Below, one piece after another: positions 26,397 through 41,445 of a DNA stretch of 64,000 bases. The stretch comes from an uncultured Bacteroidota bacterium (lineage in GTDB: Bacteria; Bacteroidota; Ignavibacteria; Ignavibacteriales; Ignavibacteriaceae), in contig CAWBBX010000101.1 in assembly GCA_963787005.1 (NCBI GenBank), positions 12,835 to 76,834 on the forward strand. Reading direction: 5' to 3'. A program made the position numbers and the translations under genes. The notes below the pieces were generated by a model. That model saw only the letters and a list, made by a program, of their open reading frames with translations. It was not told the DNA's origin and searched no databases. Position 1 is the first letter of the stretch, and every line of letters starts with the position of its first letter.

Positions 26397-26472
26397 TTCA
26401 CACCATATCTCTATAAAAGTAGAGGGCGATCATAAGAGACCGCCCAAATTAAATAATATTTCCGGAAAACTG

Positions 26473-27726: not shown

Positions 27727-27735
27727 TATCCTTCT

Positions 27736-29583
27736 TTAACCTATTTTATCCTTCAATTTTACTATTTGGTTCCTCGCTTCATCAAGATATAATGAGTCGG
27801 GGAATTTTGCAAGTAAATTTTCATAAGCGGAAACGGCTTTTGCGCTGTCGTTTAGACCAAATTGATAAATCTTGCCCACCAAATATAACGCTTTATCCGC
27901 ATAAATATTCTTTTCTTTGTCATCGGCAATTTGCTCCAAAAGTTTAATGGAATCCTCCGTATTATTCAATCCCAATTCCATTTCGGCGTATCTGAAAGCC
28001 GCCATGTTCTGAAGCATAAACTTCTGCTGCTCGCCGGCGACTTCCTTATAAAGAGCGGCCGCTTCCTTAAAATTCTTCTGCGCAGCAAGGAACTCGGCTT
28101 TTGCGAATGTTACAAGATTAGACGAATCATTCTTAGATGAGTTCAATAGCATTGATAACTCCAGCGCGTCGTTTGCGTTATCATCTTTCAGGTTATCCAT
28201 AATTCCGCTCAGCACGTCGCCGGCTTTACCGAAATTGCCTCTGTAAAAATCAATTCTGGCTAATTTATATTTTGCCAGACTTTTCTTATCCGCCGGATAC
28301 CTGCCGCCCTTTATTACGTCATCCAGGAATTTTTCCGCCGCGTTCAAATCGCCCTGCAACAAAGAAGCATCGCTTAATTGAATATATGTGTCGGGCGCGG
28401 TTTTAGACATCGGCGATTCGTCGACTATCTTATGGAAATATTTTTCCGCATCGGCGGGATCGTTCTGCCTGTCCATTTTTATCTCGCCTACTCTGAGATA
28501 AGCTTCATAAGCTGTCTCAGAATGCGGATAAGCTTTGGTGAGATCGAGGTACGCGCTTATAACTTTATCAATTTCCCCATTCCCGGTATTATCCAATTTG
28601 TAATACGGCTTCCAAGACGGAACCTGCGTCTCCCGGCTTTTTTCAAGAGAAGCTTCCAGTGATTTCGCGTAACCCAGCTTCGCACGTGAGATAAAAGGAG
28701 AATCGGGGTACTTATTAATAATTTTTGTAAAAACTTTAGATGATGTTTCGTATACTCCCTCGTTGTAGAGAAAATTAGCGAAGTTATAAAGCTCGGCGCC
28801 CTGGTTGCTCTGCTGTTCGTCAATTTGAAGATAAAGGTCATACGCATTATCATATTGCTTATCGGATACATAGAGCCGAGCCAGGAGAAACTTATAGCTT
28901 ATGTTATCGGAATCGCTCTCATACTTTTTAACAACGTCCAGCGTCTGCTTCAGCGCGTCTGCTTTATCGATGTAGTTTAATATCTTTCCTTCAATCGGTT
29001 TTAATTGATTCGGATCTTTGGAAAGCAGAAAGCAGTATTCTTCCGCCGCGTTTTTGTACTGCATCGTAACGGAATAAAGAGTGGCGAGATCGTAACCGAA
29101 GAACATCGGGTTCTTGGAAATATCCTGGCCTTTTTTCAGATATTCTATTCCTTTATCGAATGCTCTCCTCTCGAGTGCGTAGTTGGCGAGTACCCTGTAA
29201 TTCACCTCGCTCTGAGGAAGCTTTTTAAGAGCGCTGTCCCAGATTTCGAAAGCCTTATTCTCATCGCCTTTCAGGTAATAAGTGTTGCCGAGGAGCCCGT
29301 ACAAATTTACGTCCGGAGCTGAGCCGTTCATCTTATTCTCAATCAGCGCGATGGAGGCGTCGTACTTCTTAAGCTGCACGTAAATTTGGTTGAGCGACTG
29401 GAAAAACTGGTAGTTGCTGGGCTGCAGATTATACAGATCCCTGAAAAGCGGCTCGGCTTTCTGGTACTGGCCGGCCTGCAGGTAATTCTGCGCCAGCATA
29501 TAGCGGTTGTTTAAATCATTACGGTTCTGCGCCGGAATAATTGCGGCGGCAAGCAGTATGATTGCTAAAATCTTCGAAAACAT
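27736..29583 (-). CDS. secreted TPR-repeat protein
   Basis: 615 aa with a signal peptide and many TPR-like repeats. Confidence 0.75.
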   Translation of the reverse strand: MFSKILAIILLAAAIIPAQNRNDLNNRYMLAQNYLQAGQYQKAEPLFRDLYNLQPSNYQFFQSLNQIYVQLKKYDASIALIENKMNGSAPDVNLYGLLGNTYYLKGDENKAFEIWDSALKKLPQSEVNYRVLANYALERRAFDKGIEYLKKGQDISKNPMFFGYDLATLYSVTMQYKNAAEEYCFLLSKDPNQLKPIEGKILNYIDKADALKQTLDVVKKYESDSDNISYKFLLARLYVSDKQYDNAYDLYLQIDEQQSNQGAELYNFANFLYNEGVYETSSKVFTKIINKYPDSPFISRAKLGYAKSLEASLEKSRETQVPSWKPYYKLDNTGNGEIDKVISAYLDLTKAYPHSETAYEAYLRVGEIKMDRQNDPADAEKYFHKIVDESPMSKTAPDTYIQLSDASLLQGDLNAAEKFLDDVIKGGRYPADKKSLAKYKLARIDFYRGNFGKAGDVLSGIMDNLKDDNANDALELSMLLNSSKNDSSNLVTFAKAEFLAAQKNFKEAAALYKEVAGEQQKFMLQNMAAFRYAEMELGLNNTEDSIKLLEQIADDKEKNIYADKALYLVGKIYQFGLNDSAKAVSAYENLLAKFPDSLYLDEARNQIVKLKDKIG

Positions 29584-29729
29584 GCCCCAAAAATAGTAAA
29601 TAATGAGGGGGTTTCAAGGGCATTTATTAATAGTATCCGGAACTTTCGATTGATTTTTCATATTTGGAGATTTAAGGAAAAACGCTCAATTTTCAAAAGA
29701 TTTCCGATTTTTATATTCAGCGCGGATTT

Positions 29730-31163
29730 TTAATCTATTTTTATCGCGGGAAAACTAACGATAAACTTAGTACCGACAGGGAAATTATCTTCAACATTTA
29801 TAGTACCCTCCATAGAAAGAACAATTGTTTTAACCAGGCATAATCCCAGCCCATAACCGGGGATGTTTCCTTCTAAAGAAGATGCGGAACGGTAAAACCG
29901 TTCGAATATTTTTTCTTTCTCTTCATCATTAATACCGGGACCGGTGTCGGCCACGCTAATAATTATTTTCCCGTCTGTATTTTCGGCTTTAACAATTACC
30001 GGGCTTTCTTGATTCGAATATTTTATCGCGTTATCGATTAAGTTTTCCATTATTATTTGAATGCCTTCATAACTTCCGCGTAAATAAAGATTATCGGCAA
30101 TATCGTATTCTATATTCGGATTGCTAAAAGCCGGCTTAACGAAATCGGCAACTACCTTAGAAACCTTAAATACATTCGTATTCAATTCAGGTGCGCCGCT
30201 GTATTTTGCAATTATCAGAAGAGATTTAATTATGCTGATCATCTTATCCGCCTGTACGTTCAGCATATTTATAGTACCTTTATATTCTTCTAGAGTTCTA
30301 TCTCTTTTCAAAATATATTCAAGTTCGGTTTTTACAGCAGTAAGCGGCGTCATTAATTGATGTGAGGCATTATCGGTAAACTGCGATATTTGACTTATTT
30401 GGGCATCAAGCCGTGTAAACAAATTGTTCAGTGTATCCCTTAATCTCCCCAATTCATCCTGGGGATGGGCGTTGTACTTTATCCTTGTATTTAGATTATT
30501 AGCGGATATATTTTCAGCAATGCTTATAATTTTATTTAAAGGCGAATAACTTTTTTTTGCCAGAAAAACACTGACAAGAACAATTATAAGAAGTATAAAC
30601 GGAAGGTTAAGAAGATTAAATAAAATTATCTTTTTCATTATTGAGCTGTATTCTGTCCTGAATACTGAGAGCTGTAGGTAAGCTGCCGTGCTATTTTGTT
30701 CGTTTAGTATCGGAGTATAAATAACTCTAAGCTGGTGATTGCCGGTTGTCATGTTTTCATATTCATATCCCGATTTTATGCCCGGAACTTTAAACGGAAT
30801 TTTCCCGAATGATTTCAAATTATCGCTGCTTAAAAGCAATTTACCTTTTGTGCTTTGCACTTGGAGAAAAAACGCCCAGGAATTTACGGTTGTAAAATCA
30901 GGTTCTTTTATTTCACTGTAACCCACAAACTTTATAGAGTCCTCTCGGATTTCAAATGAGTCAAGGAGGGTTTTTACCTCATTTTCCAATCTATTATCAA
31001 GGTTATCGGTTAAGATTTTATTTGTTATTGCAATTGTAAAAACATTTGAGGTTACAAACAGCAGAAAGAATATTGCAATATCCCACAATACAATTCTCTT
31101 TACCGTTTCCGTAAAAAGAGGTTTCTTGTTTTTATTCCGAAATAAAAAAATAGCCTTCGCCAT
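29730..31163 (-). CDS. two-component sensor histidine kinase
   Basis: Two TM segments, a HAMP-like linker, H-box FTDNASHQLMTPLT, N-box NLIDNAIKY, G-boxes DTGPGI and GYGLGL. Its 5' end overlaps the regulator gene by 32 nt. Confidence 0.85.
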   Translation of the reverse strand: MAKAIFLFRNKNKKPLFTETVKRIVLWDIAIFFLLFVTSNVFTIAITNKILTDNLDNRLENEVKTLLDSFEIREDSIKFVGYSEIKEPDFTTVNSWAFFLQVQSTKGKLLLSSDNLKSFGKIPFKVPGIKSGYEYENMTTGNHQLRVIYTPILNEQNSTAAYLQLSVFRTEYSSIMKKIILFNLLNLPFILLIIVLVSVFLAKKSYSPLNKIISIAENISANNLNTRIKYNAHPQDELGRLRDTLNNLFTRLDAQISQISQFTDNASHQLMTPLTAVKTELEYILKRDRTLEEYKGTINMLNVQADKMISIIKSLLIIAKYSGAPELNTNVFKVSKVVADFVKPAFSNPNIEYDIADNLYLRGSYEGIQIIMENLIDNAIKYSNQESPVIVKAENTDGKIIISVADTGPGINDEEKEKIFERFYRSASSLEGNIPGYGLGLCLVKTIVLSMEGTINVEDNFPVGTKFIVSFPAIKID

Positions 31164-31800
31164 AAATAGACTTTATTAAATTTTCCCCGGTATTGTCTTC
31201 CAGTTTTTTCCTTAAATTCTTAACAGTGACCTCTATAATATTTGTCGACGGAATAAACGGAAGTTCCCAAACTTGTTTAGATATATCTTCCTTGCTCATT
31301 ATAGAGCCTTTATGTAAAATAAAATATTTGAGGAGATCAAATTCCTTTCCCGTAAGACAAATTTCACCGCGGGGTGTATTTGCTTTTCTTCCGATAAGGT
31401 CAAGAGTAATATCGTTATAAATTAGTTCGGTGGTTCCTGATTGATACCTTCTTATTACTGCGTTTATCCGCGCGTTCAGCTCGTCGAAAGAAAATGGTTT
31501 TGTTACATAATCATCCGCTCCCATGTTTAAAGCTTCAACTTTGTTTTTCACCTGGCTCAACGCGGTCAGCAGTATTATCGGCACCTTACAGCCCGCTTCC
31601 CTTATTTTACGGCATACTTCTATACCGCTTAATTTCGGCATTCGCCAATCAAGAAGAATTATATCGAAGACAATTGAATCCGTAAAATTGATTGCCTCTT
31701 CGCCGTCTTTTGCGATCATTACATGATTGCCTTCCTCTATAAAATTCTTCTTCAGAGAACTTGCAATCTGCTCATCATCTTCTGCTATTAATATTTCCAT
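31132..31800 (-). CDS. OmpR-family response regulator
   Basis: Receiver (ILIAEDD...DWRMPKLSG...K) plus a winged-helix output (LTGKEFDLLKYF...GEGYF). Confidence 0.9.
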   Translation of the reverse strand: MEILIAEDDEQIASSLKKNFIEEGNHVMIAKDGEEAINFTDSIVFDIILLDWRMPKLSGIEVCRKIREAGCKVPIILLTALSQVKNKVEALNMGADDYVTKPFSFDELNARINAVIRRYQSGTTELIYNDITLDLIGRKANTPRGEICLTGKEFDLLKYFILHKGSIMSKEDISKQVWELPFIPSTNIIEVTVKNLRKKLEDNTGENLIKSIYGEGYFFISE

Positions 31801-31960
31801 TGTTAGGAGATTTTTTCTCCTAATAAATAATGAAATATTTCCGTCATAACAAGGCGCAGCTAAAAAGTGAATGGTTTTTCATTATTGTTAATTATTCTCT
31901 CAAATAATACTTACATAGATTTGAATTGTAAAAATATTGAATTAAAAATTTGGTGCTATC

Positions 31961-33379
31961 ATGAAAAAAACAAATTACTTTATATCTTTTTTAAGTATGA
32001 TCTGCTTTTTGTTAATACAAAATTACGGTTTTGCCCAGACTTGTAAATCATGCCACACGGCCGAAGCTAATTTATGGGCAAACAGCAAGCATGCGGACAC
32101 TCAAGCCGATGTCGCATCGGAGCTCTCCGAAAACTGGATTGGCCAAACGCCGGATTCGGTTATTAACGGCTCCCAGGCGGAAGACTGCGTTTCCTGTCAT
32201 TCGCCGAGAGCAATTACCGCCAACAGCGGTATGACCGAAACTCAAGCCATGGGCTATTTCTATTCAACAACAGCCGGACAATATACCGATTCTACAAAAG
32301 CGATCAACACTTCCGACTGGCCCAATGTTACATGTAAAACCTGCCACGAAAGTGATATGACAACTTTCGGCGCTTTCAATTCTAAAACAGGAACTTATGA
32401 TTCAGTTAAGACTGCTAATGATTTATGCGGAAACTGCCACGGAACCGTCCGTCATCCCGATACCGATCACCGTGTTTATGATGCATGGCTGTCGAGTAAA
32501 CACGGGCACAAAGGTCAATCCGATGTTGCCGGCGAACTGGCTGATAGTCATAACGGCGAAACACCCGACCAGGTAATTGCCGGCGAAGATTGTATAGCGT
32601 GCCACGCCCCGACTTCGGTTACCCTCAAAGGCGGAATAACAGAAGCTCAGGCTTTGGGAACTTTTTTCACGACTTCAAACGGGACTTTTACCTCGTCTAC
32701 TTCACCGGCCGATACCGTCGATTATCCGAACGTAAGCTGTATTACTTGCCATAATCCGCACGATCCGGATACGCTTTCATTCTTCAATTCATCCACAAAA
32801 TCCTACGAGGTGATGAGTTCTTCGGATTCATTATGCGGCCAGTGCCACGGCAATTTACGCTTCCCCGATACCGATCACTTAAGCTATAATATTAATTCAG
32901 GTACCGGCGGGGAGAATGTTTCAAATATAACTTCGATGAGCGGCGTTAAATGCATAGACTGTCACATGTACAACACGGGTATTGACGGCTCGAATTCTGC
33001 GATGTACAAGGGGCACACCTGGTCGGTGTTCGTTAAAGAGCCCGACGGCAGCACCGACGCATCTTGTACTAATTGCCATGCGTCAATGTCTGCCGACTCT
33101 TCGATGGCCTGCGTAGCAAAATGGCAAAGTGATTTTCAATCACTAGATTCGGTTGCCGAAGCCGCGGTAACGGCTGCAGCTAGTCATCTAAAGAACAGCA
33201 GCGATTCAAGCAACTTTGAAGAGGCTCAATTTAATATGACCTACGCGGAATCGGATGAAAGCGGCGGTGTTCATAATCATCTTTACAGCACCGCTTTGCT
33301 TAATGACGCAATTAATAAAGCAACATTCGATAGTTACGGGAATTGCTTCCGATCATTTCAACAAACCTTTAAGTTTTAA
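31961..33379 (+). CDS. secreted nine-haem c-type cytochrome (frame ends prematurely)
   Basis: Signal peptide and nine CXXCH motifs: CKSCH, CVSCH, CKTCH, CGNCH, CIACH, CITCH, CGQCH, CIDCH, CTNCH. A three-haem module is internally duplicated. Confidence 0.85.
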   Translation: MKKTNYFISFLSMICFLLIQNYGFAQTCKSCHTAEANLWANSKHADTQADVASELSENWIGQTPDSVINGSQAEDCVSCHSPRAITANSGMTETQAMGYFYSTTAGQYTDSTKAINTSDWPNVTCKTCHESDMTTFGAFNSKTGTYDSVKTANDLCGNCHGTVRHPDTDHRVYDAWLSSKHGHKGQSDVAGELADSHNGETPDQVIAGEDCIACHAPTSVTLKGGITEAQALGTFFTTSNGTFTSSTSPADTVDYPNVSCITCHNPHDPDTLSFFNSSTKSYEVMSSSDSLCGQCHGNLRFPDTDHLSYNINSGTGGENVSNITSMSGVKCIDCHMYNTGIDGSNSAMYKGHTWSVFVKEPDGSTDASCTNCHASMSADSSMACVAKWQSDFQSLDSVAEAAVTAAASHLKNSSDSSNFEEAQFNMTYAESDESGGVHNHLYSTALLNDAINKATFDSYGNCFRSFQQTFKF

Positions 33380-33644
33380 TTTATCTCAAAATTATCCCAA
33401 TCCTTTTAATCCAAGTACAAAAATAAATTTCACAATTCCGCACAGCGGTTACGTAACCTTAAAAGTATACGACATGCTGGGGAAAGAAGTGGCTGTTCTG
33501 GTAAACGGATATAAAAACGAAGGTAATTTTTCGGCGGCTTTTAACGAGAACACTACATCGAAAAGCCTGTCAAGCGGGATATACATTTACCAGTTAAAGG
33601 AAGATAACTTTATTCAGACTAGAAAGATGGTGCTGCTTAAATAA
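33330..33644 (+). other. T9SS type-A C-terminal sorting domain coding segment, out of frame with the cytochrome
   Basis: A different frame reads ...FNLSQNYPNPFNPSTKINFTIPHSGYVTLKVYDMLGKEVAVLVNG...SSGIYIYQLKEDNFIQTRKMVLLK*. This is the classic Por/T9SS tail. It has no credible start of its own. Confidence 0.75.
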
Positions 33645-33668
33645 AAATTTAATGATATAAATTATTTA

Positions 33669-33690
33669 GGGGATGGCGGGTGCCATCCCC
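33669..33690. terminator. hairpin between convergent genes
   Basis: GGGGATGGC-GGGT-GCCATCCCC lies between the cytochrome/T9SS tail (+) and the TonB-C gene (-). Confidence 0.5.
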
Positions 33691-33704
33691 GGAAGTTAAA
33701 ATTA

Positions 33705-34405
33705 TTATTGTAGCCTGAATATTATCGGTATAGAAACCTGCGTCTTTACTGCTTTACCACGCTGTCTGCCGGGTGTAAAAACCGTTTCTTCAACCGCTTT
33801 CATCGCAGCTTGATCGCATCCGCCGCCAATACCTTTTAAAACTCTAGCCTTTACAACCTTCCCTTCTTCATTAATAAAAGCAAGGACATATACTTTTCCT
33901 TCTATTCCGGCCCTTTTCGCAATTTCAGGATAAACAACTTTATCCTGTATAGCTTTAATACCGCCTATCGGCTCGGGCATATCCTCTACGGCGACAAAAT
34001 AAGTTGATTGCGGAATGTTGCTCGGCTAGAGAGCTGTCTGGTCCAAGGATCATATTGGATGACTCACCTTTGCTTTTAAACGAATAGCGGGCCTTAAATT
34101 TAACCGGCTTTCCGTTTTTCATGGCGGGCTTAATTTTCCACTTCTCCAGCATATTCTACAATATCGTTATCTGTTGAATCGTTAACGGAATTGATAATTA
34201 TTATTTTATCGATTTTGCCTTCTTTATTTATTAAGAGCCTGGAATCGAATTCCGGAGAAAAATTTTGGGGACTGTAGGCTTTTGATATTATCCTTCCAAT
34301 ATCTTTCACCCACGTAGAATCGAAGAGCATTCGCTCTACGAAACCAATAGGCGGATTATCTACTTCTCCGAGAGTTAAATAACTCGTCGTCGGAAATTTT
34401 TTCAA
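33705..34405 (-). pseudogene. protein with two TonB C-terminal-like domains, split over three frames
   Basis: Three ORFs (34130-34405, 33955-34152, 33705-33980) read through as one protein. Junction 1 is ...DNDIVEY / (N)MLEKWKIKPAMKNGKPVKF. The last domain's frame is open upstream of its Met (PSNIPQSTYFVAVEDMPEPIGGIKAIQ...). Confidence 0.55.
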
Positions 34406-34485
34406 CTTTTATTTCTTTACTCTCACATGCCGAAAGTATGCGAGCAGCATCAACAATATTATTGGGTACACGTTTCATTTTATCC

Positions 34486-34944
34486 TCACATTTTTGCTTT
34501 TATAATTACTGCATTTTTTATTTTTGCGTCCACCTGCGCGGCGGGCAGACTGTTGAACAGCAGCTCGATTGTCTGGTTCTGCGCCTGAACCTGCCTTGTA
34601 ACAGAATCTATCTGGTATTTATAATCGGTAATTCTATTGAAGAGAATTACGCTTAGAATTATTAATAGAATTGTAACTGCATACGAGACAGGGACAAAAA
34701 ATCTCTTAAACAATTTTGTTCTTGTTCCGCTTTCCTTTCTATTTATCGCGCCGAAGATACGCTCTTCCAGATCAGCAGGGAATTCTTCTTTCTGAATGGC
34801 GGAAGTAATTAACGATAAAGATTTAAAATACTCCCTGCACTCGGCGCATTCTGCGAGATGCGTGAATACATATGCCTCGCTTCCCTTCTCGAGCTCGCCG
34901 TCGTAATACTCCCCTATCATCTCTTTATTTTTATCGCAGCTCAT
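34486..34944 (-). CDS. anti-sigma factor (zf-HC2 type, single TM)
   Basis: HLAECAECREYF zinc-finger motif and one TM segment. It lies directly downstream of the ECF sigma gene. Confidence 0.75.
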   Translation of the reverse strand: MSCDKNKEMIGEYYDGELEKGSEAYVFTHLAECAECREYFKSLSLITSAIQKEEFPADLEERIFGAINRKESGTRTKLFKRFFVPVSYAVTILLIILSVILFNRITDYKYQIDSVTRQVQAQNQTIELLFNSLPAAQVDAKIKNAVIIKAKM

Positions 34945-34949
34945 TTTAT

Positions 34950-35465
34950 TTACCTCACAAGTTTTGATATCTTTTCCGTCAGCGCCTGCCTGGCCCTGAA
35001 CAGTCTGCCTTTAACCTGACTTTCCTCAATGTTCAATATGTTCGCAATCTCTTTGTAGCTGAGTTCCGAATACTGCCTGAGAATAAAAGCTTCCTTTAGA
35101 TCCTCTCTCAACTCCGCTATGCCGTTTTGTATAAGCTCCTTTATTTCGGCGCCTTCAATCTCGCCGGCAAGATCTTCGCCCGACCTATATTCCGCATCTT
35201 CCTTTATCCCGTCTTCTTTCCTTACCCTTTTCTTGCGAAGGTGCATATAAACTTCGTTCCTCGCCGTTGTATAAAGCCAGGGTATTACGCTCTGCGACTG
35301 CCGGATGTTCCCGAGATTTTCGTACAGCTTTAAGAACACGTTCTGTGTTATATCTTCCGCAATAAACTTTTCGCTCAGCATTTTATATACATAGTTATAA
35401 AGCTGGGTTTTGCTCCGGTTATATACCAGCGTAAAGTCTATTATATTTGAAAAGCTTTCGGCCAA
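34950..35465 (-). CDS. ECF-type RNA polymerase sigma factor
   Basis: Region 2 (DITQNVFLKLY...WLYTTARN) and region 4 (LSYKEIANILNIEESQVKGRLFRARQAL). Confidence 0.88.
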   Translation of the reverse strand: MAESFSNIIDFTLVYNRSKTQLYNYVYKMLSEKFIAEDITQNVFLKLYENLGNIRQSQSVIPWLYTTARNEVYMHLRKKRVRKEDGIKEDAEYRSGEDLAGEIEGAEIKELIQNGIAELREDLKEAFILRQYSELSYKEIANILNIEESQVKGRLFRARQALTEKISKLVR

Positions 35466-35474
35466 AGGCTTTCC

Positions 35475-36170
35475 TTAATTGGATTTTGCAGCTTTTTGAA
35501 AATGATTCTTCTCCACTAGCGCATTAATCCTGTCCATAGCATAGCTGACCAGTTTCTTATCCTTATCTTTTCCGAGAGTTAAATATTTCTGATAATATTT
35601 TATAGCGATAGTTTTATCCTTGTAATAATGATCGTATACCGCGGCAATGTAGAAGATCAGTTTTTTATTATCGGGATTTTCCCTGAACGCGTCCTGGTAA
35701 TATTTAAGAGCTTCGGAATAATTTTTCTGCGCATAATACGAAGCCGCTATCTGTGTACGCACCTCCGCAAGAAAATCGTTCTGCTGAAGCTTTGCCGATA
35801 TCGAAAGCTCTTTGATCGCATCGTCGTACCGCTTGAGCTCTTTATAGCACATTCCCAGATAATAATACGCCGCCGGATCGCTATCCATTAATTTGATAGC
35901 ATGCTTTAAATAAAAAACCGCGGTATCGTATTCAGTAAGCCAGAAATGCGATACACCCATATTCCTGAAATTCACTTCGGTCGAGTCCCCGTAATCTATG
36001 GAATTCTGAAAAGCCGTTACAGCGCCTTCATAATCCTTCAGCTTAAAGTTTATATTGCCTTTCAATGTCCACATTGAAGATGAACTCGGATAATACTTAA
36101 GTCCGTCGTTTATAATTCTGGTTGCGGAAATATATTGTTCTTTCGACATATAAAGTCTGCTCAGTTCCAT
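35475..36170 (-). CDS. TPR-repeat protein
   Basis: 231 aa of TPR repeats with no signal peptide. Its frame stays open upstream of the Met into the end of the preceding ORF. Confidence 0.65.
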   Translation of the reverse strand: MELSRLYMSKEQYISATRIINDGLKYYPSSSSMWTLKGNINFKLKDYEGAVTAFQNSIDYGDSTEVNFRNMGVSHFWLTEYDTAVFYLKHAIKLMDSDPAAYYYLGMCYKELKRYDDAIKELSISAKLQQNDFLAEVRTQIAASYYAQKNYSEALKYYQDAFRENPDNKKLIFYIAAVYDHYYKDKTIAIKYYQKYLTLGKDKDKKLVSYAMDRINALVEKNHFQKAAKSN

Positions 36171-36184
36171 TACCGTACTTTCAT

Positions 36185-36772
36185 TTAAGAGGATTGAGCT
36201 CTGTGTGCTATTTGAAAATCAATAATCGCGTCGTCGATGTCCTTCAAAATAAATTCGCAGTGCGCCTGCTGCTCGTAATAAAAGCTATTCGTAGAATCCT
36301 GCTCCGCAAGAGTTCTGTAAGTATCATCGGCGTCTATCCACTTATGCTCGCGCATATAGACTTCGCCGAGAGACCGGAGCAGCAGTGTATTTGTAGAATC
36401 GATTACATATGCGTATCTAAGGACAGAATCGGCGTCACTGAGCCTCCCCGAGGATAAAAAGCTTCGGCCGAGAAGAATTTGTAATTTCAGCTTCCCCGGT
36501 TTTAATTTTACGGCTTTTTCAAAAAAGTCGGAAGCCTTTGTAAAATTTGAAAGGGATTGATAATTCAGGCCGAGATTGTATATAACCTCGTAATTATCCG
36601 GATCATCCGCCAACAATTTTTGAAGGATAGAAATTGATTGATGGTAATTCCCTTCCATCATCAGCATTCTGACTTTATTCAGCTCATCCTCCTTGCCGCT
36701 CTGTGCCGCGGTAAATGCAGGAATAATGATGAACAGAATAAGCAGAAAATAAATTCGTTTTGTTTTATGCAT
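36185..36772 (-). CDS. secreted TPR-repeat protein
   Basis: Signal peptide MHKTKRIYFLLILFIIIPAFTAAQS, then TPR repeats. It ends 14 nt before the next TPR ORF. Confidence 0.65.
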   Translation of the reverse strand: MHKTKRIYFLLILFIIIPAFTAAQSGKEDELNKVRMLMMEGNYHQSISILQKLLADDPDNYEVIYNLGLNYQSLSNFTKASDFFEKAVKLKPGKLKLQILLGRSFLSSGRLSDADSVLRYAYVIDSTNTLLLRSLGEVYMREHKWIDADDTYRTLAEQDSTNSFYYEQQAHCEFILKDIDDAIIDFQIAHRAQSS

Positions 36773-37503
36773 TATATTACCCGGTTTTCCCCGAAAAATG
36801 GGCTTCTATATGTAAAGATGATCGAACGGCGGAAAAGTTTGGGTGGAATGATATTTTTTTTGTGGAGACGCGCCATGGCGCGTCTCTACTACATAATTGC
36901 CGGAAGCATAAAATGTAGGGCGAAGCTCATCGCATCGCCCTACAAAACAAAAACCTTCGGGGTTACTTATAAATCCCGATGGTTGCATAAAAATCGTAGG
37001 GACAACTCATGAGTTGTCCCTACATCGTATTAATATTACCTGAGTAACCTTGAAGGTCTTGAAAAGCGACCTTCAAGGTTTAAATCTATTTTAATATTAG
37101 AAATGAAACTGCACCAGGAACATTTCGTTTTTAACCGAAGAAGAGAAAAGTTTGAAAGAAATGATATTTTTTTGTAGAGACGACCCGGAAAAATGAGACA
37201 CCCCACCGGGGCGTCTCTACGAAAATTTGTTGGTATCATTTAAAGATAAACCATCGGGGTTACCTTCAAAACCCCGATGGTTGCATAAAAATCGTAGGGA
37301 CAACTCATGAGTTGTCCCTACATCGTATTAATAATTATACTCGAGAAACCTTGAAGGTCTTAAAAAGCGACCTTCAAGGTTGAAATAATTTTAATAATAG
37401 AAATGAAACTGCAAGAGGAACATTTTCGTTTTGAACCGAAGAAGATTTTATTCTCAGCTTATTAAACAAATTTCGCTTGCTTTTTGTTTGTAACTGAGGG
37501 ATA

Positions 37504-37626
37504 TCAGTGATTAAGAGACGTATTTAGAATATTTTCCTTATAATTACTCGAAGAGACTATATCCTTACTGCAACCATTTAAAAATATTAAATATATGATT
37601 ATTGTATATAGATATGTTTTTTTCAT
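37504..37626 (-). CDS. possible 40-aa lipoprotein-like small ORF in the unique insert of the array
   Basis: MKKTYLYTIIIYLIFLNGCSKDIVSSSNYKENILNTSLNH*. It has a lipobox-like LNGC, and GGGGGAATAATT precedes the ATG. It is short and could be an N-terminal gene remnant. Confidence 0.25.
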   Translation of the reverse strand: MKKTYLYTIIIYLIFLNGCSKDIVSSSNYKENILNTSLNH

Positions 37627-38138
37627 AATTATTCCCCCATATTTAATATTAATCATCTATGTGATTAATCATTGTTAATATCTTTTATTAACTAAGCAAG
37701 ACTATATAATTAAAGATGTTTTTGACTTAGAAAAGTTTGAGAGGAATGATATTTTTTGTAGAGACGGGGCAACATGTCCCAATGCTTCGGGATGCCCGTT
37801 TCTGCATCGAAATGCTATGAAAAATGAGACACCCCACCGGGGCGTCTCTACGAAAATTTGTTGGTATCATTTAAAGATAAACCATCGGGGGTTACCTTCA
37901 AAACCCCGATGGTTGCATAAAAATCGTAGGGACAACTCATGAGTTGTCCCTACATCGTATTAATATTACTCGAGTAACCTTGAAGGTCTTAAAAAGCGAC
38001 CTTCAAGGTTGAAATAATTTTAATAATAGAAATGAAACTGCAAGAGGAACTTTTCGTTTTGAACCGAAGAAGAGAAAAGTTTGAGAGGAAGAAGATTTTT
38101 TGTAGAGACGACCCGGCGGGTCGTCTAAATGCACATAC

Positions 38139-38173
38139 AAAAAAAATGAGACGCCTCACCGAGGCGTCTCTAC
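38139..38173 (-). terminator. Rho-independent terminator-like module inside array unit 4
   Basis: On the minus strand: GAGACGCC-loop-GGCGTCTC followed by ATTTTTTTT. Weaker equivalents (shorter T runs) occur in units 2 and 3. Confidence 0.5.
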
Positions 38174-38676
38174 GAAGACTCTTTGCATTAAGAAACCTTC
38201 GGGGTTACTTTCAAAACCCCGATGGTTGCATAAAAATTGTAGGGACAACTCATGAGTTGTCCATACATCGTATTAATATAACTGAGTAATCTTGAAGGTC
38301 TTAAAAAGCGACCTTCAAGGTTAAATAATTGTAATATTAGAAATGAAACTGCACGAGGAACTTTTCGTTTTTAACCGAAGAAGAGAAAAGTTTGAAAGAA
38401 ATGATATTTTTTTGTAGAGACGACCCGGCGGGTCGGCTCTACTAAAAATATTATTGATTACATAATTGCGGGGCGAAGCTGTGCTTCACCCTACAAAACA
38501 AAAACCTTCGGGGTTACCTTCAAAACCCCGATGGTTGCATAAAAATCGTAGGGACAACTCATGAGTTGTCCCTACATCGTATTAATAATTACCTGATTGA
38601 GCAACCTTGAAGGCTTGCCTGCCGGTAGGCAGGGCAGGCAAGTCTTAAAAAGTGACCTTCAAAGTTTAAATCTATT

Positions 38677-39801
38677 TTAATAATAGAAATGAAATTGCAC
38701 TAGGAACACGTCGTTCTTTACAGAGGGCGATTCGAACTGGAACCTGTACTGCGGCCGGACTTCAACAAAGCTGTACGGGAAGAACTCGGCGCCGACAATA
38801 AATCTCGATACTTCGTCTCCGCTAACACTCGTGTTGGGATCAAATTTATCGTAGCGTAATATTCCTTCCAAGCCTTTTACTATTCTGTATGAACCTTTAA
38901 GCATAAGAGCAGATGAGTTAGCGCCCACCGATTCGTAATCGCTCGCCATATCGTATTCACCCATCAGCGTAAAATTACCTACTCCGAATCCCGCGTAACC
39001 TCCGTACATATTAATTTTATGCTCTGTAGGTAGCGGCGTGTAAATAAGAGGACCGCGGAAATTTGTATACGACGCTCCGAGCAGAACCGCTACCTTGCTC
39101 GCTATTACCGGATTAACCTGTATGCTCGCAGTGTATGTGGGATCGCTGTTGAAGTTTAAATTAACGGGACTCCCGACGCTGGCCGTTATCAGCCCGACAT
39201 CACCTATATTATAGCCGAGCTCAACGCCTGTAACGCTGTACCTGGGATCGAATATTAAACCTCTCCTTTGATTTGTGGTAAACAAGTAGCCGAGGTCTCC
39301 GCCTCGCGTGTACGCCGTATGATCATCTATGCGCAGACCGAAATCAGGATAAAAAGTACCGGCTTTAACGTAGCTTTCGTTGGGAAGAATATGCGCTACC
39401 GCGAACGCCTCCCACGTCTGGTTTACAAAATCATATTGTGCGTAAGCGTTGATTTCATCGCTCAGATCAACGTTTGTATACATAGTACCTTCCATCTTCT
39501 GGAATGCGGTCTTGCCGAACTGCTGGGAGTAAACGTATTGAGTTCTATAATCCAATCCGACTTCAATATTATCGGCGATGTGATTATCCATCTTAAAAGA
39601 TTTATCTCTCGGCGAGACTAGCGGAAGAACTTTCCAGCCGAAATGCCAGCCGCCTTTGTTCCTCATTCCTCCGCCGGTAGGATCGATGTGGCAGTCGATG
39701 CAGCGGGCCCCCATTCTGAGCGCGAACCTGGGAAGAGCGTAGCTGCTGCCGATCCCCATAAAAATAAAAGCGGCAATCATAAAATACTTGGTATACTTCA
39801 T
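38677..39801 (-). CDS. fused monohaem cytochrome c / outer-membrane beta-barrel protein (Cyc2-like architecture)
   Basis: Start set at MKYTKYFMIAAFIFMGIGSSYA (signal peptide). A single CIDCH follows ~11 residues after the predicted cleavage site. About 340 aa of beta-strand-like alternating sequence then end in ...VFLVQFHFYY*. Confidence 0.55.
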   Translation of the reverse strand: MKYTKYFMIAAFIFMGIGSSYALPRFALRMGARCIDCHIDPTGGGMRNKGGWHFGWKVLPLVSPRDKSFKMDNHIADNIEVGLDYRTQYVYSQQFGKTAFQKMEGTMYTNVDLSDEINAYAQYDFVNQTWEAFAVAHILPNESYVKAGTFYPDFGLRIDDHTAYTRGGDLGYLFTTNQRRGLIFDPRYSVTGVELGYNIGDVGLITASVGSPVNLNFNSDPTYTASIQVNPVIASKVAVLLGASYTNFRGPLIYTPLPTEHKINMYGGYAGFGVGNFTLMGEYDMASDYESVGANSSALMLKGSYRIVKGLEGILRYDKFDPNTSVSGDEVSRFIVGAEFFPYSFVEVRPQYRFQFESPSVKNDVFLVQFHFYY

Positions 39802-40131: not shown

Positions 40132-41274
40132 ATGAAACAAGTTTTAATCTTAGGTTCTACCGGTTCGATAGGGGTAAATACACTTAATGTCATACGAAAC
40201 TTCCCCGACAAGTTTAAGATTACCGCTCTTACAGTAAATACCAAAATTGATCTGCTCGAACCTCAAATAGAAGAATTTAACCCCGAAGCAGTTGTTGTAA
40301 AAGACAAAAAGGCGGCCGCGGTTCTGCGGAAAAGGATCGGCGGCAAGTGCGAAGTCCTTTCCGGCAGCGAAGGCCTTCTCAGCGCTGCATCCGATCTCGA
40401 TTACGACATATTCGTCGGTGCTATGGTGGGATTCAGCGGACTTGCGCCTGCTATTGAGGCTGTAAAGAGAGGTAAGATTATCGCTCTCGCCAACAAGGAA
40501 ACACTGGTTGTGGCGGGCGAGCTGGTTACAAAATTATGTGAAGAAAACGGCGCGAGATTAATTCCCATAGATTCCGAACACAGCGCGATATTCCAGTGCC
40601 TGGAAGGCGAAGATAGAAACCGGATAGAGAAGATTATTTTAACGGCTTCGGGCGGACCGTTTTTAAATTACGAAAAATCATCGCTCGAAAACGTTTCGGT
40701 AAAGGAAGCGCTCAATCATCCCAACTGGAACATGGGAAATAAGATCACCATCGACTCGGCATCGATGATGAACAAAGGATTGGAAGTAATTGAAGCTAAG
40801 TGGCTGTTCGGGATGGAGCCGGATAAAATCGATATCGTTATTCATCCGCAGTCTATCGTACATTCAATAGTACAGTTTATCGATGGATCTATGAAAGCGC
40901 AGATGGGGCTGCCGGATATGAAACTCCCCATCCAGTATGCGCTCACGTACCCGGAGAGGCAAAAAAATAATTTTGAACGGACAAACCTTCCTAAAATCGG
41001 AAACCTCAGTTTCCTGGAGCCTGACCCGGAGAAGTTCGAATGCTTAAAAATTGCATACAACGCTTTGAATACCGGAGGCACTGCGCCGTGTATAATGAAC
41101 GCTGCCAATGAGGTAGCGGTAGATAAATTCCTTAAAGGGAATATACCGTTCCCCGGCATTCCGAAGCTAATTATGAAGGCTCTCGACAAGATTGAGAATC
41201 ATAAATCGCCGGATCTGGATATCATTTTCGATTGCGACCGGCAAACCCGCGAATACACTTCAGGATTAACCTGA
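40132..41274 (+). CDS. dxr: 1-deoxy-D-xylulose 5-phosphate reductoisomerase
   Basis: ILGSTGSIG, LANKE, IDSEHSAIFQC, NKGLE. Confidence 0.93.
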   Translation: MKQVLILGSTGSIGVNTLNVIRNFPDKFKITALTVNTKIDLLEPQIEEFNPEAVVVKDKKAAAVLRKRIGGKCEVLSGSEGLLSAASDLDYDIFVGAMVGFSGLAPAIEAVKRGKIIALANKETLVVAGELVTKLCEENGARLIPIDSEHSAIFQCLEGEDRNRIEKIILTASGGPFLNYEKSSLENVSVKEALNHPNWNMGNKITIDSASMMNKGLEVIEAKWLFGMEPDKIDIVIHPQSIVHSIVQFIDGSMKAQMGLPDMKLPIQYALTYPERQKNNFERTNLPKIGNLSFLEPDPEKFECLKIAYNALNTGGTAPCIMNAANEVAVDKFLKGNIPFPGIPKLIMKALDKIENHKSPDLDIIFDCDRQTREYTSGLT

Positions 41275-41445
41275 GTTTTCTCGCTTTAAACAGATAAGGA
41301 TTATATTTATCTTTTACGCTCAATTTTAGGATGATATATCACCCCTGCCTACCGGTTTACATACCGAGGGTATGCAGGCAGGCGCGACATTTTCATATGA
41401 CACTATATAGAAATTTACCTTTTTAAAACGGAGACCCCAGACTAG

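What the first reader, a model, noticed from the sequence alone, without database searches (positions are those of the whole stretch)
29730..39801. Locus-level association: two cytochromes, a two-component system and an ECF sigma module as a candidate extracellular electron-transfer island
Within 10 kb the window carries:
- A kinase/OmpR-type regulator pair divergent from the nine-haem T9SS-tailed cytochrome.
- Convergent with the cytochrome, a minus-strand string: cytochrome-porin, hairpin array, two TPR proteins, ECF sigma, anti-sigma and a TonB-C-domain protein.

None of the flanking genes (clpX, dxr, rseP) relates to respiration. No recognised Mtr/Pcc/Omc-type operon layout is present. If this is functional, the combination would be an undescribed arrangement.
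Basis: inference. Interest (0 to 1): 0.6.

Follow-up and report, generated by a model that had tools for sequence, protein, structure and literature searches.

The report
Three gene modules, not one island
The two cytochrome genes, the sensor pair and the sigma-factor genes are all really there, but in related bacteria they are inherited as three separate units, so this is a one-off neighbourhood rather than a dedicated electron-transfer island.

Summary
The window is from an Ignavibacteriaceae metagenome-assembled genome (MAG).

Comparison with about 60 related loci splits the 10 kb into three independently inherited units:
- **A, the haem-porin (38677-39801):** a Cyc2-like single-haem, 16-strand porin. 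It is single-copy in 78 of 151 genomes of the order and anchored beside dxr-rseP.
- **B, the ECF operon:** an autoregulated promoter driving TPR-TPR-ECF sigma-anti-sigma-TonB_C. It sits beside dxr-rseP across three families, with or without the porin.
- **C, the sensor-cytochrome cassette:** kinase and regulator divergent from an OcwA-like nine-haem cytochrome with a T9SS tail. It is invariant in more than 12 contexts, usually next to metal-efflux genes, and lies near A only here.

Neither B's promoter motif nor C's conserved operator occurs upstream of another module. A 1.85-kb terminator-rich repeat array separates A from B. Here the cytochrome's T9SS tail is out of frame and the TonB_C gene has at least three frameshifts.

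Two points remain in favour of a link. In one other genome C abuts B in a permuted order. In Melioribacteraceae the porin gene is directly preceded by a T9SS-tailed mono-haem cytochrome gene (28 genomes).

The scan has noted Cyc2-like porins beside T9SS haem proteins on other DNA before.

The island reading is largely refuted. The by-products are of moderate interest.

The parts
29730..31163 (-). Sensor histidine kinase of unit C (477 aa; two TM segments, HAMP, HisKA, HATPase_c)
   Evidence: Pfam hits. The best NCBIfam hit is TIGR01386, heavy-metal sensor kinase, at 173.7 bits, below the 292.55 cut-off. Orthologs of 59-78% identity are always paired with the regulator and the cytochrome.
31132..31800 (-). 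OmpR-family response regulator of unit C (222 aa)
   Evidence: Response_reg plus Trans_reg_C. Orthologs are 68-82% identical.
31867..31894 (.). Candidate regulator operator in the divergent promoter region: GTGAA-N6-TTCATTATTGTTAATTA (inverted repeat AATGAA-N6-TTCATT)
   Evidence: It is the most conserved block in the alignment of 11 orthologous regulator-cytochrome intergenic regions from two families. It is unique in the window (0.02 matches expected by chance) and has no other match with fewer than 2 mismatches in the genome.
31961..33379 (+). OcwA-like nine-haem c-type cytochrome; residues 1-457 are conserved and the last 15 are frameshift read-out
   Evidence: Nine CXXCH motifs. Pfam Cytochrome_C554 at the N-terminus and Cytochrom_C552 at the C-terminus. 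Sequence match to PDB 6i5b (OcwA), E 5.9e-12. AF2 model pLDDT 87.5. Foldseek top hits are OcwA (E 9e-8) and the C. ferrireducens S-layer undecahaem cytochrome.
33318..33644 (+). T9SS type-A C-terminal sorting domain, out of frame with the cytochrome (+1 nt near 33322-33325)
   Evidence: Por_Secre_tail and TIGR04183. The DNA alignment with four orthologs shows the single-base insertion. tblastn shows the frame switch.
33705..34480 (-). Degraded gene for a lipoprotein-like protein with two TonB_C domains; last gene of unit B; at least three frameshifts
   Evidence: TonB_C in 33705-33980. Pieces lie in three frames when compared with intact 242-292-aa orthologs.
34486..34944 (-). Anti-sigma factor (zf-HC2, one TM segment)
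   Evidence: Pfam and NCBIfam hits. Orthologs occur in 96 of 151 genomes.
34950..35465 (-). ECF sigma factor
   Evidence: Sigma70_r2 and r4_2. TIGR02937 scores above its cut-off.
35475..36772 (-). Two TPR proteins (231 aa and 195 aa with a signal peptide); first genes of the ECF operon in this genus
   Evidence: TPR Pfam hits. Gaps between genes are 5-14 nt. The same order is found in L002, L004 and L052.
36816..36839 (-). ECF-type autoregulatory promoter (AACTTTT-N12-CATCT), 44 nt upstream of the TPR195 ATG
   Evidence: The motif G(C/A)AACWTTT-N12-CATCT is conserved upstream of the ECF operon in 21 relatives. There is an exact match here. The equivalent site lies in front of the TPR gene in L002 and L052.
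36830..38676 (.). Five or six tandem units of about 310 nt: an amplified copy of the spacer from the porin gene's 3' end to the -35 of the ECF promoter. It is rich in terminator-like hairpins on the minus strand. A second full promoter copy lies at 37714-37737, in front of the mini-ORF 37504-37656.
   Evidence: Repeat families D1-D7; copy 38642-38724 overlaps the porin gene's end. Ten terminator-like hairpins on the minus strand. Promoter copy. The array is absent from all relatives' loci. No Rfam match.
38677..39801 (-). Unit A: Cyc2-like fused single-haem cytochrome-porin (374 aa)
   Evidence: C34xxC37H38 is invariant in 36 homologs. AF2 model has 16 strands, pLDDT 75.5. Foldseek matches 16-strand porins, including OprO 4rjw. 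78 of 151 genomes carry it, almost always as a single copy.
40132..42798 (+). dxr and rseP: the conserved anchor of the neighbourhood
   Evidence: Pfam hits. Synteny.
25140..29583 (-). The other side of the backbone: 615-aa TPR protein, clpX, and a conserved 418-aa protein with no family hit
   Evidence: Pfam hits. Synteny.

Best explanation
The 10 kb is a composite of three units that are inherited, and apparently regulated, separately.

**Unit A, the haem-porin.** It encodes an outer-membrane protein with one c-type haem fused to a 16-strand porin, built like the iron oxidase Cyc2. It has lain next to dxr-rseP since before Ignavibacteriaceae and Melioribacteraceae split. It most likely passes single electrons across the outer membrane to or from soluble iron or a surface partner (inferred).

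**Unit B, the ECF operon.** An ECF-type promoter at 36816-36839 drives two TPR proteins, the sigma factor, a zinc-finger anti-sigma and a TonB_C protein. It is an old resident of the same housekeeping neighbourhood in three families, whether or not the porin is present. It is being lost in this genus: absent from five of seven sampled congeners, and its last gene is frameshifted here. It is probably an envelope-signal circuit. Cleavage of the anti-sigma by the adjacent RseP is inferred.

**Unit C, the sensor-cytochrome cassette.** A CusS/CopS-like kinase and an OmpR-type regulator act on a conserved palindromic operator at 31867-31894. This would control the divergent gene for an OcwA-like nine-haem cytochrome, which in intact orthologs is exported by the type IX secretion system to the cell surface. 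Elsewhere the cassette usually sits beside CzcB/RND efflux or CopA/cupredoxin genes, so it is most likely a metal-responsive surface oxidoreductase module (inferred).

In this genome unit C has landed in the variable slot between the TonB_C gene and the 615-aa TPR gene. Its sorting tail is out of frame here. The closeness of the two cytochromes is therefore a lineage-specific juxtaposition, not a co-evolved electron-transfer island.
For: **Separate inheritance**
- The backbone rseP-dxr-porin-[variable slot]-TPR615-clpX is conserved. The slot is empty in L001, L003 and L008, and holds only unit B in L002 and L004.
- Unit B lies beside dxr-rseP in 11 porin-less genomes from families f1, f3 and f4.
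- Of 78 genomes with the porin, 21 have the anti-sigma within 20 kb, 24 have it elsewhere and 33 lack it. A further 51 genomes have the anti-sigma but no porin.
- Unit C is an invariant three-gene unit in L022-L025, L027, L051, L052 and L057-L063. It is never next to the porin.
- In G120 the porin is mid-contig on C27 while the cassette is on C17.

**Neighbours of unit C**
- RND/CzcB genes flank it in L022, L025, L051, L052, L061 and L062/63. CopA plus a cupredoxin flank it in L057.
- The kinase's best family hit is the heavy-metal sensor kinase model.

**Separate regulation**
- The ECF promoter motif occurs only in front of TPR195 and inside the array. PWM scores are below 0 in the porin-dxr and regulator-cytochrome intergenic regions.
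- The operator has no other match with fewer than 2 mismatches in the genome.
- Ten terminator-like hairpins lie between the porin gene and unit B.

**Protein identities:**
Against: - In one other genome of similar relatedness (ENA contig k141_730555; L052/L054) unit C directly abuts unit B, in circularly permuted order. So C and B are adjacent in both genus-level genomes known to have both.
- G000 has about 11 multi-haem loci, so the chance of one falling within 6.5 kb of the porin is only about 4%.
- In Melioribacteraceae a T9SS-tailed mono-haem cytochrome gene lies 4-374 bp upstream of the porin gene in 28 genomes. That cytochrome shares the porin's haem motif. Haem-porins and T9SS cytochromes may therefore really work together.
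- The co-regulation tests rest on motifs learned from autoregulatory sites and would miss divergent target sites.
- The metal-response reading of unit C rests on neighbourhood and a sub-threshold family hit.
- No expression data could be consulted.
Confidence: 0.62

Rival explanations
1. This is a genuine, recently assembled electron-transfer island. The haem-porin carries electrons across the outer membrane to the T9SS-displayed nine-haem cytochrome, and the two-component system and the ECF system tune expression. Selection has brought the parts together in this lineage.
For: - All parts lie within 10 kb.
- The chance of such proximity for a multi-haem gene is about 4%.
- Units B and C are adjacent again, in a different order, in L052/L054.
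- A T9SS mono-haem cytochrome and the porin form an operon in 28 Melioribacteraceae genomes, and the two proteins share a haem motif.
- The nine-haem protein's best structural relatives are the surface terminal reductases OcwA and the C. ferrireducens S-layer cytochrome.
Against: - No relative has porin and cassette adjacent.
- L052/L054 has no porin within the 10-kb flanks fetched on either side of the cassette and ECF module.
- Promoter and operator motifs are not shared between units.
- A terminator array insulates the porin gene.
- The cytochrome's sorting tail is out of frame and the TonB_C gene is broken here. This is not what one expects of a unit under selection.
Confidence: 0.15
2. 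Only units B and C are functionally linked, as a metal- or iron-responsive envelope unit. It would comprise the ECF/anti-sigma/TonB_C genes, plus a TonB-dependent receptor and a ChaN-like haem-binding protein in relatives, together with the metal-sensing two-component system and its surface cytochrome. The porin would be a bystander.
For: - B and C are adjacent in both genus-level genomes that carry both, in permuted order but with the same relative orientation. This is compatible with a shared circular intermediate or a tandem duplication that was resolved differently.
- Unit B's neighbours in L004 and L052 include an 810-aa TonB-dependent-receptor-like protein. In L052 they also include a protein with a weak Cofac_haem_bdg hit.
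Against: - In Melioribacteraceae genomes with both (G093, G036) B and C are on different contigs.
- Most cassettes lack B nearby, and most B modules lack C.
- The two units share no motif.
- Only two genomes support it.
Confidence: 0.13
3. The juxtaposition, or at least the frame disruptions at the cytochrome/TonB_C junction, is an artefact of metagenome assembly (a chimeric join or local consensus errors). Alternatively the region is simply decaying, so no function should be read into it.
For: - The genome is an 85%-complete MAG in 135 contigs.
- At least four frame disruptions cluster in 33320-34450, while neighbouring genes are intact.
- Another multi-haem gene in G000 (C62:7616-12635) is also split over three overlapping frames.
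- GC falls to 0.342 at 30-32 kb.
Against: - A chimera would need two false joins inside a 78-kb contig.
- clpX, rseP, dxr, the sigma, the anti-sigma and the porin are all intact.
- The same kind of adjacency between units B and C exists in an independent assembly.
Confidence: 0.1

Closest known systems
Cyc2 fused cytochrome-porin (Mariprofundus Cyc2PV-1, Acidithiobacillus ferrooxidans Cyc2; Keffer et al. 2021, PMC8406198)
   Same: Signal peptide, a single N-terminal CXXCH, and a 16-strand porin barrel with fold similarity to OprO and general porins. Cyc2 homologs have been reported in Ignavibacteriaceae and Ignavibacteriales MAGs (PMC6344600, PMC8478452).
   Different: - It hits no Pfam or NCBIfam model, and sequence homology to characterised Cyc2 could not be tested.
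- It has its own strongly conserved motifs: LPRFALRxGxxCxDCHxNPTGGxMRN and DDHTAYTRGGD.
- The hosts are heterotrophs rather than known iron oxidisers.
- In Melioribacteraceae it is co-operonic with a T9SS mono-haem cytochrome.
OcwA, the nine-haem cell-surface terminal reductase of Thermincola potens (PDB 6I5B; Costa et al. 2019, PMC6703420)
   Same: Nine haems. A c554-like N-terminal part and an NrfA-like C-terminal part with a three-helix bundle. It is the best sequence match (E 5.9e-12) and the best fold match (E 9e-8).
   Different: - The host is Gram-negative.
- Surface delivery is through a T9SS C-terminal domain rather than a Gram-positive cell wall.
- The gene is paired with a dedicated two-component system and is often next to metal-efflux genes.
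- Only about 20% identity, and TM-score 0.41.
- In this window the tail is out of frame.
CusRS / CopRS / CzcRS heavy-metal two-component systems with adjacent RND or P-type ATPase efflux genes
   Same: A HAMP-HisKA kinase whose best family hit is TIGR01386. An OmpR-type regulator. A palindromic operator in a divergent promoter region. CzcB/RND or CopA/cupredoxin neighbours in 7 of 12 orthologous contexts.
   Different: - The kinase scores below the curated cut-off.
- The known metal-ligand residues were not identified.
- The constant partner is a surface multi-haem cytochrome, not an efflux pump.
- The window has no efflux genes nearby.
Porin-cytochrome complexes (MtrCAB, PioAB, Geobacter OmbB-OmaB-OmcB)
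   Same: The concept is the same: an outer-membrane barrel plus c-type cytochromes carrying electrons across the envelope. Geobacter-like complexes are reported in Ignavibacteria (PMC7399161).
   Different: There is no MtrB/PioB- or OmbB-type barrel and no periplasmic deca- or octa-haem gene in an operon with a barrel. The barrel here carries its own haem. The multi-haem gene is 5 kb away, convergent, and separately inherited.
ECF sigma / ZAS-type anti-sigma pairs processed by the site-2 protease RseP
   Same: Sigma r2 and r4, a zf-HC2 anti-sigma with one TM segment directly downstream, an autoregulatory AAC...CATCT-type promoter, and conserved adjacency to rseP.
   Different: In this genus the operon starts with two TPR proteins and ends with a TonB_C protein. 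The signal is unknown, and cleavage by RseP is only inferred.

Membership tests
Cyc2 fused cytochrome-porin | N-terminal signal peptide | tested here: met
   By inspection: a hydrophobic N-terminus MKYTKYFMIAAFIFMGIGSSYA followed by LPRF, conserved in 36 homologs. AF2 models residues 2-14 as a helix. No signal-peptide predictor was available.
Cyc2 fused cytochrome-porin | Single CXXCH near the N-terminus | tested here: met
   C34, C37 and H38 are invariant in alignment A2, and there is only one CXXCH per protein.
Cyc2 fused cytochrome-porin | 16-strand outer-membrane porin barrel resembling OprO/OprP | tested here: met
   The AF2 model has 16 strands, pLDDT 75.5 and pTM 0.76. Foldseek matches OmpM1, OmpU, OmpT and OmpF at E 1e-11, and OprO 4rjw at E 6e-10.
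Cyc2 fused cytochrome-porin | Sequence homology to characterised Cyc2 (clusters 1-3; FeGenie models) | not testable with these tools
   There is no hit in Pfam or NCBIfam. The 1480 related clusters carry no names. No reference Cyc2 sequence could be fetched.
Cyc2 fused cytochrome-porin | Fe(II) oxidase activity | not testable with these tools
   This needs biochemistry.
Mtr/Pcc porin-cytochrome operon | MtrB/PioB- or OmbB-type barrel gene in one operon with periplasmic and extracellular multi-haem genes | tested here: not met
   No such Pfam families occur in any ORF of 25-43 kb. The only barrel carries its own haem. The multi-haem gene is convergent and 5 kb away.
OcwA-like / NrfA-family nine-haem cytochrome | Nine CXXCH, a c554-like N-terminal part, and an NrfA-like C-terminal part with a helix bundle | tested here: met
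   Nine motifs. PF13435 at residues 27-86 and PF02335 at 325-455. Long helices at 378-456.
OcwA-like / NrfA-family nine-haem cytochrome | Significant sequence and fold match to 6I5B | tested here: met
   phmmer E 5.9e-12. Foldseek rank 1, E 9e-8, 408 aligned columns, but TM-score only 0.41.
T9SS type-A cargo | Por_Secre_tail domain in frame at the C-terminus of the cargo | tested here: not met
   In the window the domain is in another frame because of a +1 nt insertion. It is in frame in all orthologs examined.
Heavy-metal two-component system (CusRS/CopRS/CzcRS) | Kinase reaches the curated TIGR01386 score | tested here: not met
   173.7 bits against a cut-off of 292.55. It is nevertheless the best-scoring family.
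Heavy-metal two-component system (CusRS/CopRS/CzcRS) | Adjacent metal efflux or resistance genes | tested here: not met
   None are in the window. They are present in 7 of 12 orthologous contexts. G000 has no close ortholog of the associated RND pump, though the genome is only 85% complete.
ECF sigma / anti-sigma module | Sigma r2 and r4, a co-transcribed membrane anti-sigma, and an autoregulatory promoter | tested here: met
   for the domains. There is a 5-nt gap between the two genes. The promoter motif is conserved in 21 relatives and present at 36816-36839.
Co-inherited genomic island | The parts co-occur and stay linked in related genomes | tested here: not met
   The only exception is the adjacency of units B and C in L052/L054.
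Co-inherited genomic island | Mobility signatures (integrase, flanking tRNA, deviant composition) | tested here: inconclusive
   The window has no tRNA and the scanned ORFs include no integrase or transposase. GC falls to 0.342 over the kinase and regulator genes, against about 0.43 elsewhere.

The most novel reading that the evidence does not exclude
Ignavibacteriales may use an undescribed outer-envelope electron route in which a Cyc2-like haem-porin hands electrons to c-type cytochromes displayed on the cell surface by the type IX secretion system. The partner would be a mono-haem cytochrome encoded in the same operon in Melioribacteraceae, and an OcwA-like nine-haem cytochrome under a metal-sensing two-component system in this genus. 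On this reading, the placement of the cytochrome cassette next to the porin/ECF neighbourhood here, and next to the ECF module in a second genome, reflects selection for a regulated redox island that is still being assembled.
Probability: 0.17. Interest if true: 0.7.

Novelty: new variant of a known kind. Interest (0 to 1): 0.36.

Why it matters
As an island, the finding mostly dissolves. It shows how a conserved housekeeping neighbourhood plus one lineage-specific insertion can look like a purpose-built gene cluster.

Two by-products deserve attention if confirmed:
- **A conserved cytochrome cassette.** An OcwA-like nine-haem cytochrome is fitted with a T9SS sorting tail, wired to its own two-component system and a conserved operator, and usually sits among metal-efflux genes. 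Databases mostly name it 'nitrite reductase c552'.
- **A two-gene operon in Melioribacteraceae.** It encodes a T9SS mono-haem cytochrome followed by the haem-porin.

Searches of the held literature found no paper connecting type IX secretion with extracellular-electron-transfer cytochromes. How Ignavibacteria, which are common on anodes and in iron-rich habitats, move electrons to the outside remains unsettled. Both units give concrete, testable candidates.

Tried and rejected
- **Weak kinase/regulator hits beyond rseP** in genus g9 (L011, L014, L015; 37% and 30% identity). These are paralogs with no cytochrome next to them and were not counted as conservation.
- **Presence correlation of the nine-haem ortholog with the porin.** 6 of 7 genomes against a background of 78 of 151. 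This is too few, and the genomes are related, so nothing can be concluded.
- **Rfam scan of 29.0-40.3 kb.** No match, so the array is not a known RNA family.
- **Third exact ECF-motif match at 57365-57388.** It lies inside a 506-aa ORF and was judged to be chance.
- **Naming the porin family.** Distant cluster representatives are all 'hypothetical', one from Candidatus Eisenbacteria. A profile search of solved structures gave only a non-significant 8e5f hit (E 0.33).
I extended the locus with a second look-up instead.
- **The 386-aa gene in L052** was first suspected to be the porin. tblastn shows it is not.
- **The array in relatives.** Several same-genus contigs end 1-2 kb after the porin gene, which suggested a conserved array. 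blastn found no array sequence in any fetched locus.

Full report
**What is there.** The window is G000:C101:12835-76834, from a 3.9-Mb MAG that is 85% complete and in 135 contigs. Record titles of relatives place it in Ignavibacteriaceae, order Ignavibacteriales. The second large family in the comparisons (f3) is Melioribacteraceae. ORF listing and Pfam/NCBIfam scans confirm every gene in the finding:
- kinase 29730-31163(-)
- OmpR-type regulator 31132-31800(-)
- nine-CXXCH cytochrome 31961-33379(+)
- T9SS sorting domain 33318-33644, in another frame
- TonB_C gene 33705-about 34480(-)
- zf-HC2 anti-sigma 34486-34944(-)
- ECF sigma 34950-35465(-)
- two TPR genes 35475-36772(-)
- repeat array of about 1.85 kb
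- single-CXXCH 374-aa protein 38677-39801(-)

The flanks are dxr and rseP on one side. On the other side are a 615-aa TPR gene, clpX and a conserved 418-aa gene with no family hit.

**The haem-porin (unit A).** The protein hits no Pfam or NCBIfam family. It nevertheless has 522 close homologs and 1480 related 50%-identity clusters. All those looked up are named 'hypothetical', and one is from Candidatus Eisenbacteria.
- In 36 aligned homologs the motif LPRFALRxGxxC-x-D-C-H-x-NPTGGxMRN is nearly invariant.
- An AlphaFold2 model (pLDDT 75.5, pTM 0.76) has 16 strands.
- Foldseek matches 16-strand porins at E 1e-11 to 1e-9, including OprO 4rjw.
- This is the published structural definition of Cyc2: a signal peptide, one CXXCH and a 16-strand OprO/P-like porin (PMC8406198).
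- Cyc2 homologs have been reported in Ignavibacteriaceae and Ignavibacteriales MAGs (PMC6344600, PMC8478452).

Sequence homology to characterised Cyc2 could not be tested with the tools on hand. The gene occurs in 78 of 151 sampled genomes of the order, as a single copy in all but one.

**Neighbourhood from the porin's side.** I fetched 20 kb around the porin gene in 20 genomes, plus one ENA contig, and ran tblastn with all window proteins.
- The order rseP-dxr-porin-[slot]-TPR615-clpX-418aa is conserved through Ignavibacteriaceae.
- In the same genus the slot is empty in L001, L003 (G120) and L008 (G100).
- In L002 (G096) and L004 (G078) the slot holds TPR195-TPR231-ECF-anti-sigma-TonB_C.
- No relative's slot holds the kinase, regulator or nine-haem cytochrome.
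- The 1.85-kb array is absent from every relative. The porin-TPR195 spacer is 176-235 bp in L002 and L004.

**The ECF module (unit B) belongs to the backbone, not to the porin.** Anti-sigma orthologs occur in 96 of 151 genomes.
- Of the 78 porin genomes, 21 have the anti-sigma within 20 kb, 24 have it elsewhere and 33 lack it. A further 51 genomes have the anti-sigma without the porin.
- I fetched 20 anti-sigma loci. Eleven porin-less genomes from three families keep ECF-anti-sigma-TonB_C(x2) right beside dxr-rseP. An example is L034: rseP-dxr-ECF-anti-sigma-TonB_C-TonB_C-TPR615-clpX-418aa.
- In G052 and G084 the module is in this place while the porin is on another contig. In G029 the porin sits after TonB_C instead of before the module.
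- The porin has therefore been inserted at varying points of an older neighbourhood.
- Upstream of the ECF operon, 21 relatives share the motif G(C/A)AACWTTT-N12-CATCT.
- In the window the motif lies at 36816-36839, 44 nt before the TPR195 start. The equivalent site precedes the TPR gene in L002 and L052.
- Gene gaps of 5-14 nt make TPR195-TPR231-sigma-anti-sigma one operon.
- The last gene, TonB_C, is split over three or more frames here.
- Five of seven sampled congeners lack the module altogether. It appears to be on its way out in this genus.

**The kinase-regulator-cytochrome cassette (unit C).** Orthologs of the cytochrome at 60% identity or more occur in only 7 of 151 genomes: four in this genus and three in Melioribacteraceae.
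- In five of the six fetched loci the regulator and kinase lie divergently next to it, at 59-82% identity.
- The same holds in seven further contexts found through the protein database: L051, L052, L057, L058, L059/60, L061 and L062/63.
- Intact proteins are 553-582 aa with the T9SS domain in frame. The window copy has one extra base near 33322-33325.
- The protein has a c554-like N-terminus and an NrfA-like C-terminus.
- Its best solved relative by sequence is OcwA, 6I5B (E 5.9e-12). OcwA is the nine-haem surface terminal reductase of Thermincola (PMC6703420).
- A model with pLDDT 87.5 has OcwA as its top fold match (E 9e-8, TM 0.41). Next comes the S-layer undecahaem cytochrome of Carboxydothermus ferrireducens, then nitrite reductases.
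- Public annotation mostly calls the family 'ammonia-forming cytochrome c nitrite reductase subunit c552'.
- The kinase's best family is the heavy-metal sensor kinase model, below its cut-off.
- Neighbours of the cassette are CzcB-type fusion protein plus RND pump in L022, L051, L061 and L062/63, and nearby in L052 and L025. In L057 they are a CopA-like ATPase plus a cupredoxin.
- The regulator-cytochrome intergenic region holds a conserved block, (A/G)TGAA-N6-TTCATT(A/T)TTnTTAATTA, in 11 cassettes of two families. In the window it is at 31867-31894. It is unique in the window, and no other site in the genome matches with fewer than 2 mismatches.

I read unit C as a metal-responsive module that controls a surface-displayed multi-haem oxidoreductase. 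The unit and its operator are shown. The signal and the substrate are inferred.

**Is C linked to A or B?**
- In G120 the porin is mid-contig on C27, followed directly by TPR615. The cassette is on C17 between a TonB-dependent receptor gene and a beta-propeller gene.
- In G088 and G136 the cassette contigs carry radical-SAM genes on one side. In G088 RND genes lie on the other side, while the G136 contig ends just after the cytochrome. None of the backbone is present.
- In Melioribacteraceae G093 and G036 the cassette and the ECF/porin region are on different contigs.
- There is one exception. In ENA contig k141_730555 (L052/L054) the order is cytochrome <-> regulator-kinase-(386-aa protein with a weak Cofac_haem_bdg hit)-TPR-ECF-anti-sigma-TonB_C-(810-aa receptor-like protein). 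There is no dxr, clpX or porin within the 10-kb flanks fetched.
- Relative to the window, that is a circular permutation with the same relative orientation.
- So the two genus-level genomes known to carry both B and C have them adjacent. This is a real but thin signal (n = 2), and I keep it as a rival reading.

**Co-regulation tests in silico.** A weight matrix from the 21 ECF promoters finds only two sites in the 64-kb window. One is in front of TPR195. The other is a copy inside the array at 37714-37737, in front of the 50-aa mini-ORF 37504-37656. The best scores in the porin-dxr and regulator-cytochrome intergenic regions are negative. The candidate operator has no second copy. Ten terminator-like hairpins on the minus strand lie between the porin gene and TPR195. 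The three units thus look transcriptionally separate. The caveat is that both motifs were learned from autoregulatory sites.

**The array.** Repeat family D2 includes a copy overlapping the last 48 nt of the porin gene (38642-38724). Family D4 carries the -35 part of the ECF promoter. The units are therefore tandem copies of the original porin-to-TPR195 spacer: gene end, hairpins and promoter. The 28-nt palindrome GTAGGGACAACTCATGAGTTGTCCCTAC is dispersed in G000, with another array on C97. There is no Rfam match.

**What favours a functional tie between haem-porins and T9SS cytochromes in general.**
- In Melioribacteraceae a 222-aa protein with a signal peptide, one CXXCH and a T9SS tail is encoded 4-374 bp upstream of the porin gene in 28 genomes; the strand is the same in the loci examined. 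In 6 genomes both genes are present but apart, and 14 have the small cytochrome without the porin.
- Its haem region (C-x-x-C-H-x-x-P-x-GGG-x-RN...FG) aligns with that of the porin at 45% identity over 31 residues, pairwise E 2e-7.
- G000 has no ortholog of it.
- G000 has about 11 multi-haem loci, two of them further T9SS-tailed nine-haem genes. The chance of one lying within 6.5 kb of the porin is about 4%.
- No paper in the held library links T9SS with multi-haem or EET cytochromes.
- Earlier notes of this scan describe Cyc2-like porins next to T9SS-sorted haem proteins in other phyla. I did not test those.

**Verdict.** The island interpretation fails its own co-conservation test and two in-silico co-regulation tests. 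The locus is best read as an old dxr-rseP/ECF/clpX neighbourhood that carries a Cyc2-like porin gene. A separately inherited sensor-cytochrome cassette has been inserted into its variable slot in this lineage only. There are signs of decay at the junction: the tail is out of frame and TonB_C is broken. The cassette itself and the Melioribacteraceae operon are the parts worth following up.

Noticed in passing
L018:8602-10519 (also L019, L020, L050, and 28 genomes): In Melioribacteraceae a 222-aa mono-haem cytochrome with a T9SS tail (Pfam Temptin_C and Por_Secre_tail) is encoded directly upstream of the haem-porin gene. Its haem motif CxxCHxxPxGGGxRN resembles the porin's own.
   Followed up: partly
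window 37504-37741: A full copy of the ECF promoter motif (37714-37737, minus strand) sits just upstream of the 50-aa lipoprotein-like mini-ORF (37504-37656), inside the AT-rich insert of the array.
   Followed up: partly
window 36830-38676; G000 C97:11.7-14.2 kb: The array units are tandem copies of the spacer from the porin gene's end to the ECF promoter. The 28-nt palindrome GTAGGGACAACTCATGAGTTGTCCCTAC also forms a second array of about 11 copies on contig C97 and occurs singly on other contigs.
   Followed up: partly
G000 C62:7616-12635: Three overlapping minus-strand ORFs in different frames carry 22, 24 and 20 CXXCH motifs. This looks like one giant multi-haem cytochrome gene split by frameshifts, so frame disruptions in this MAG are not confined to the window.
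   Followed up: no
G000 C70:3643-9333 and C75:21110-23236: G000 has two more T9SS-tailed nine-haem cytochrome genes. The one on C70 heads a cluster with 4-, 14- and 6-haem genes, which is a more conventional candidate electron-transfer locus than the one in the window.
   Followed up: no
L018:7978-8463, L019:11402-11893, L020:8027-8515: In Melioribacteraceae a 161-163-aa integral membrane protein is encoded divergently between dxr and the mono-haem cytochrome gene. It has weak UPF0093/HemJ-like, SirB and DUF2269 hits.
   Followed up: no
window 25140-26396: A 418-aa protein next to clpX is 74-86% identical across the family yet hits no Pfam or NCBIfam model. It is a strongly conserved protein of unknown function.
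   Followed up: no
slot between TonB_C and TPR615 (window 29584-33704; L002:5061-6061; L004:5104-8766; L017:12618-15037; L049): This intergenic slot holds different cargo in each genome: a 163-aa ORF, a 149-aa ORF plus an 810-aa TonB-dependent-receptor-like gene, a 649-aa T9SS-tailed gene, the haem-porin, or nothing. It behaves as an insertion hot spot.
   Followed up: partly
L001:7131-8484 and 13128-14379: In the closest ENA relative both rseP and clpX are split into two frames. That assembly evidently has indel errors or pseudogenes, so gene lengths there should be read with care.
   Followed up: no
window 39802-40131; alignment A2 columns around residues 152-171: The porin family has an invariant stretch P-N-x-G-I-R-x-DDHTAYTRGGD that falls in a low-confidence loop of the model (residues 160-177). 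Invariant H161 and M103 are candidates for the distal haem ligand.
   Followed up: no
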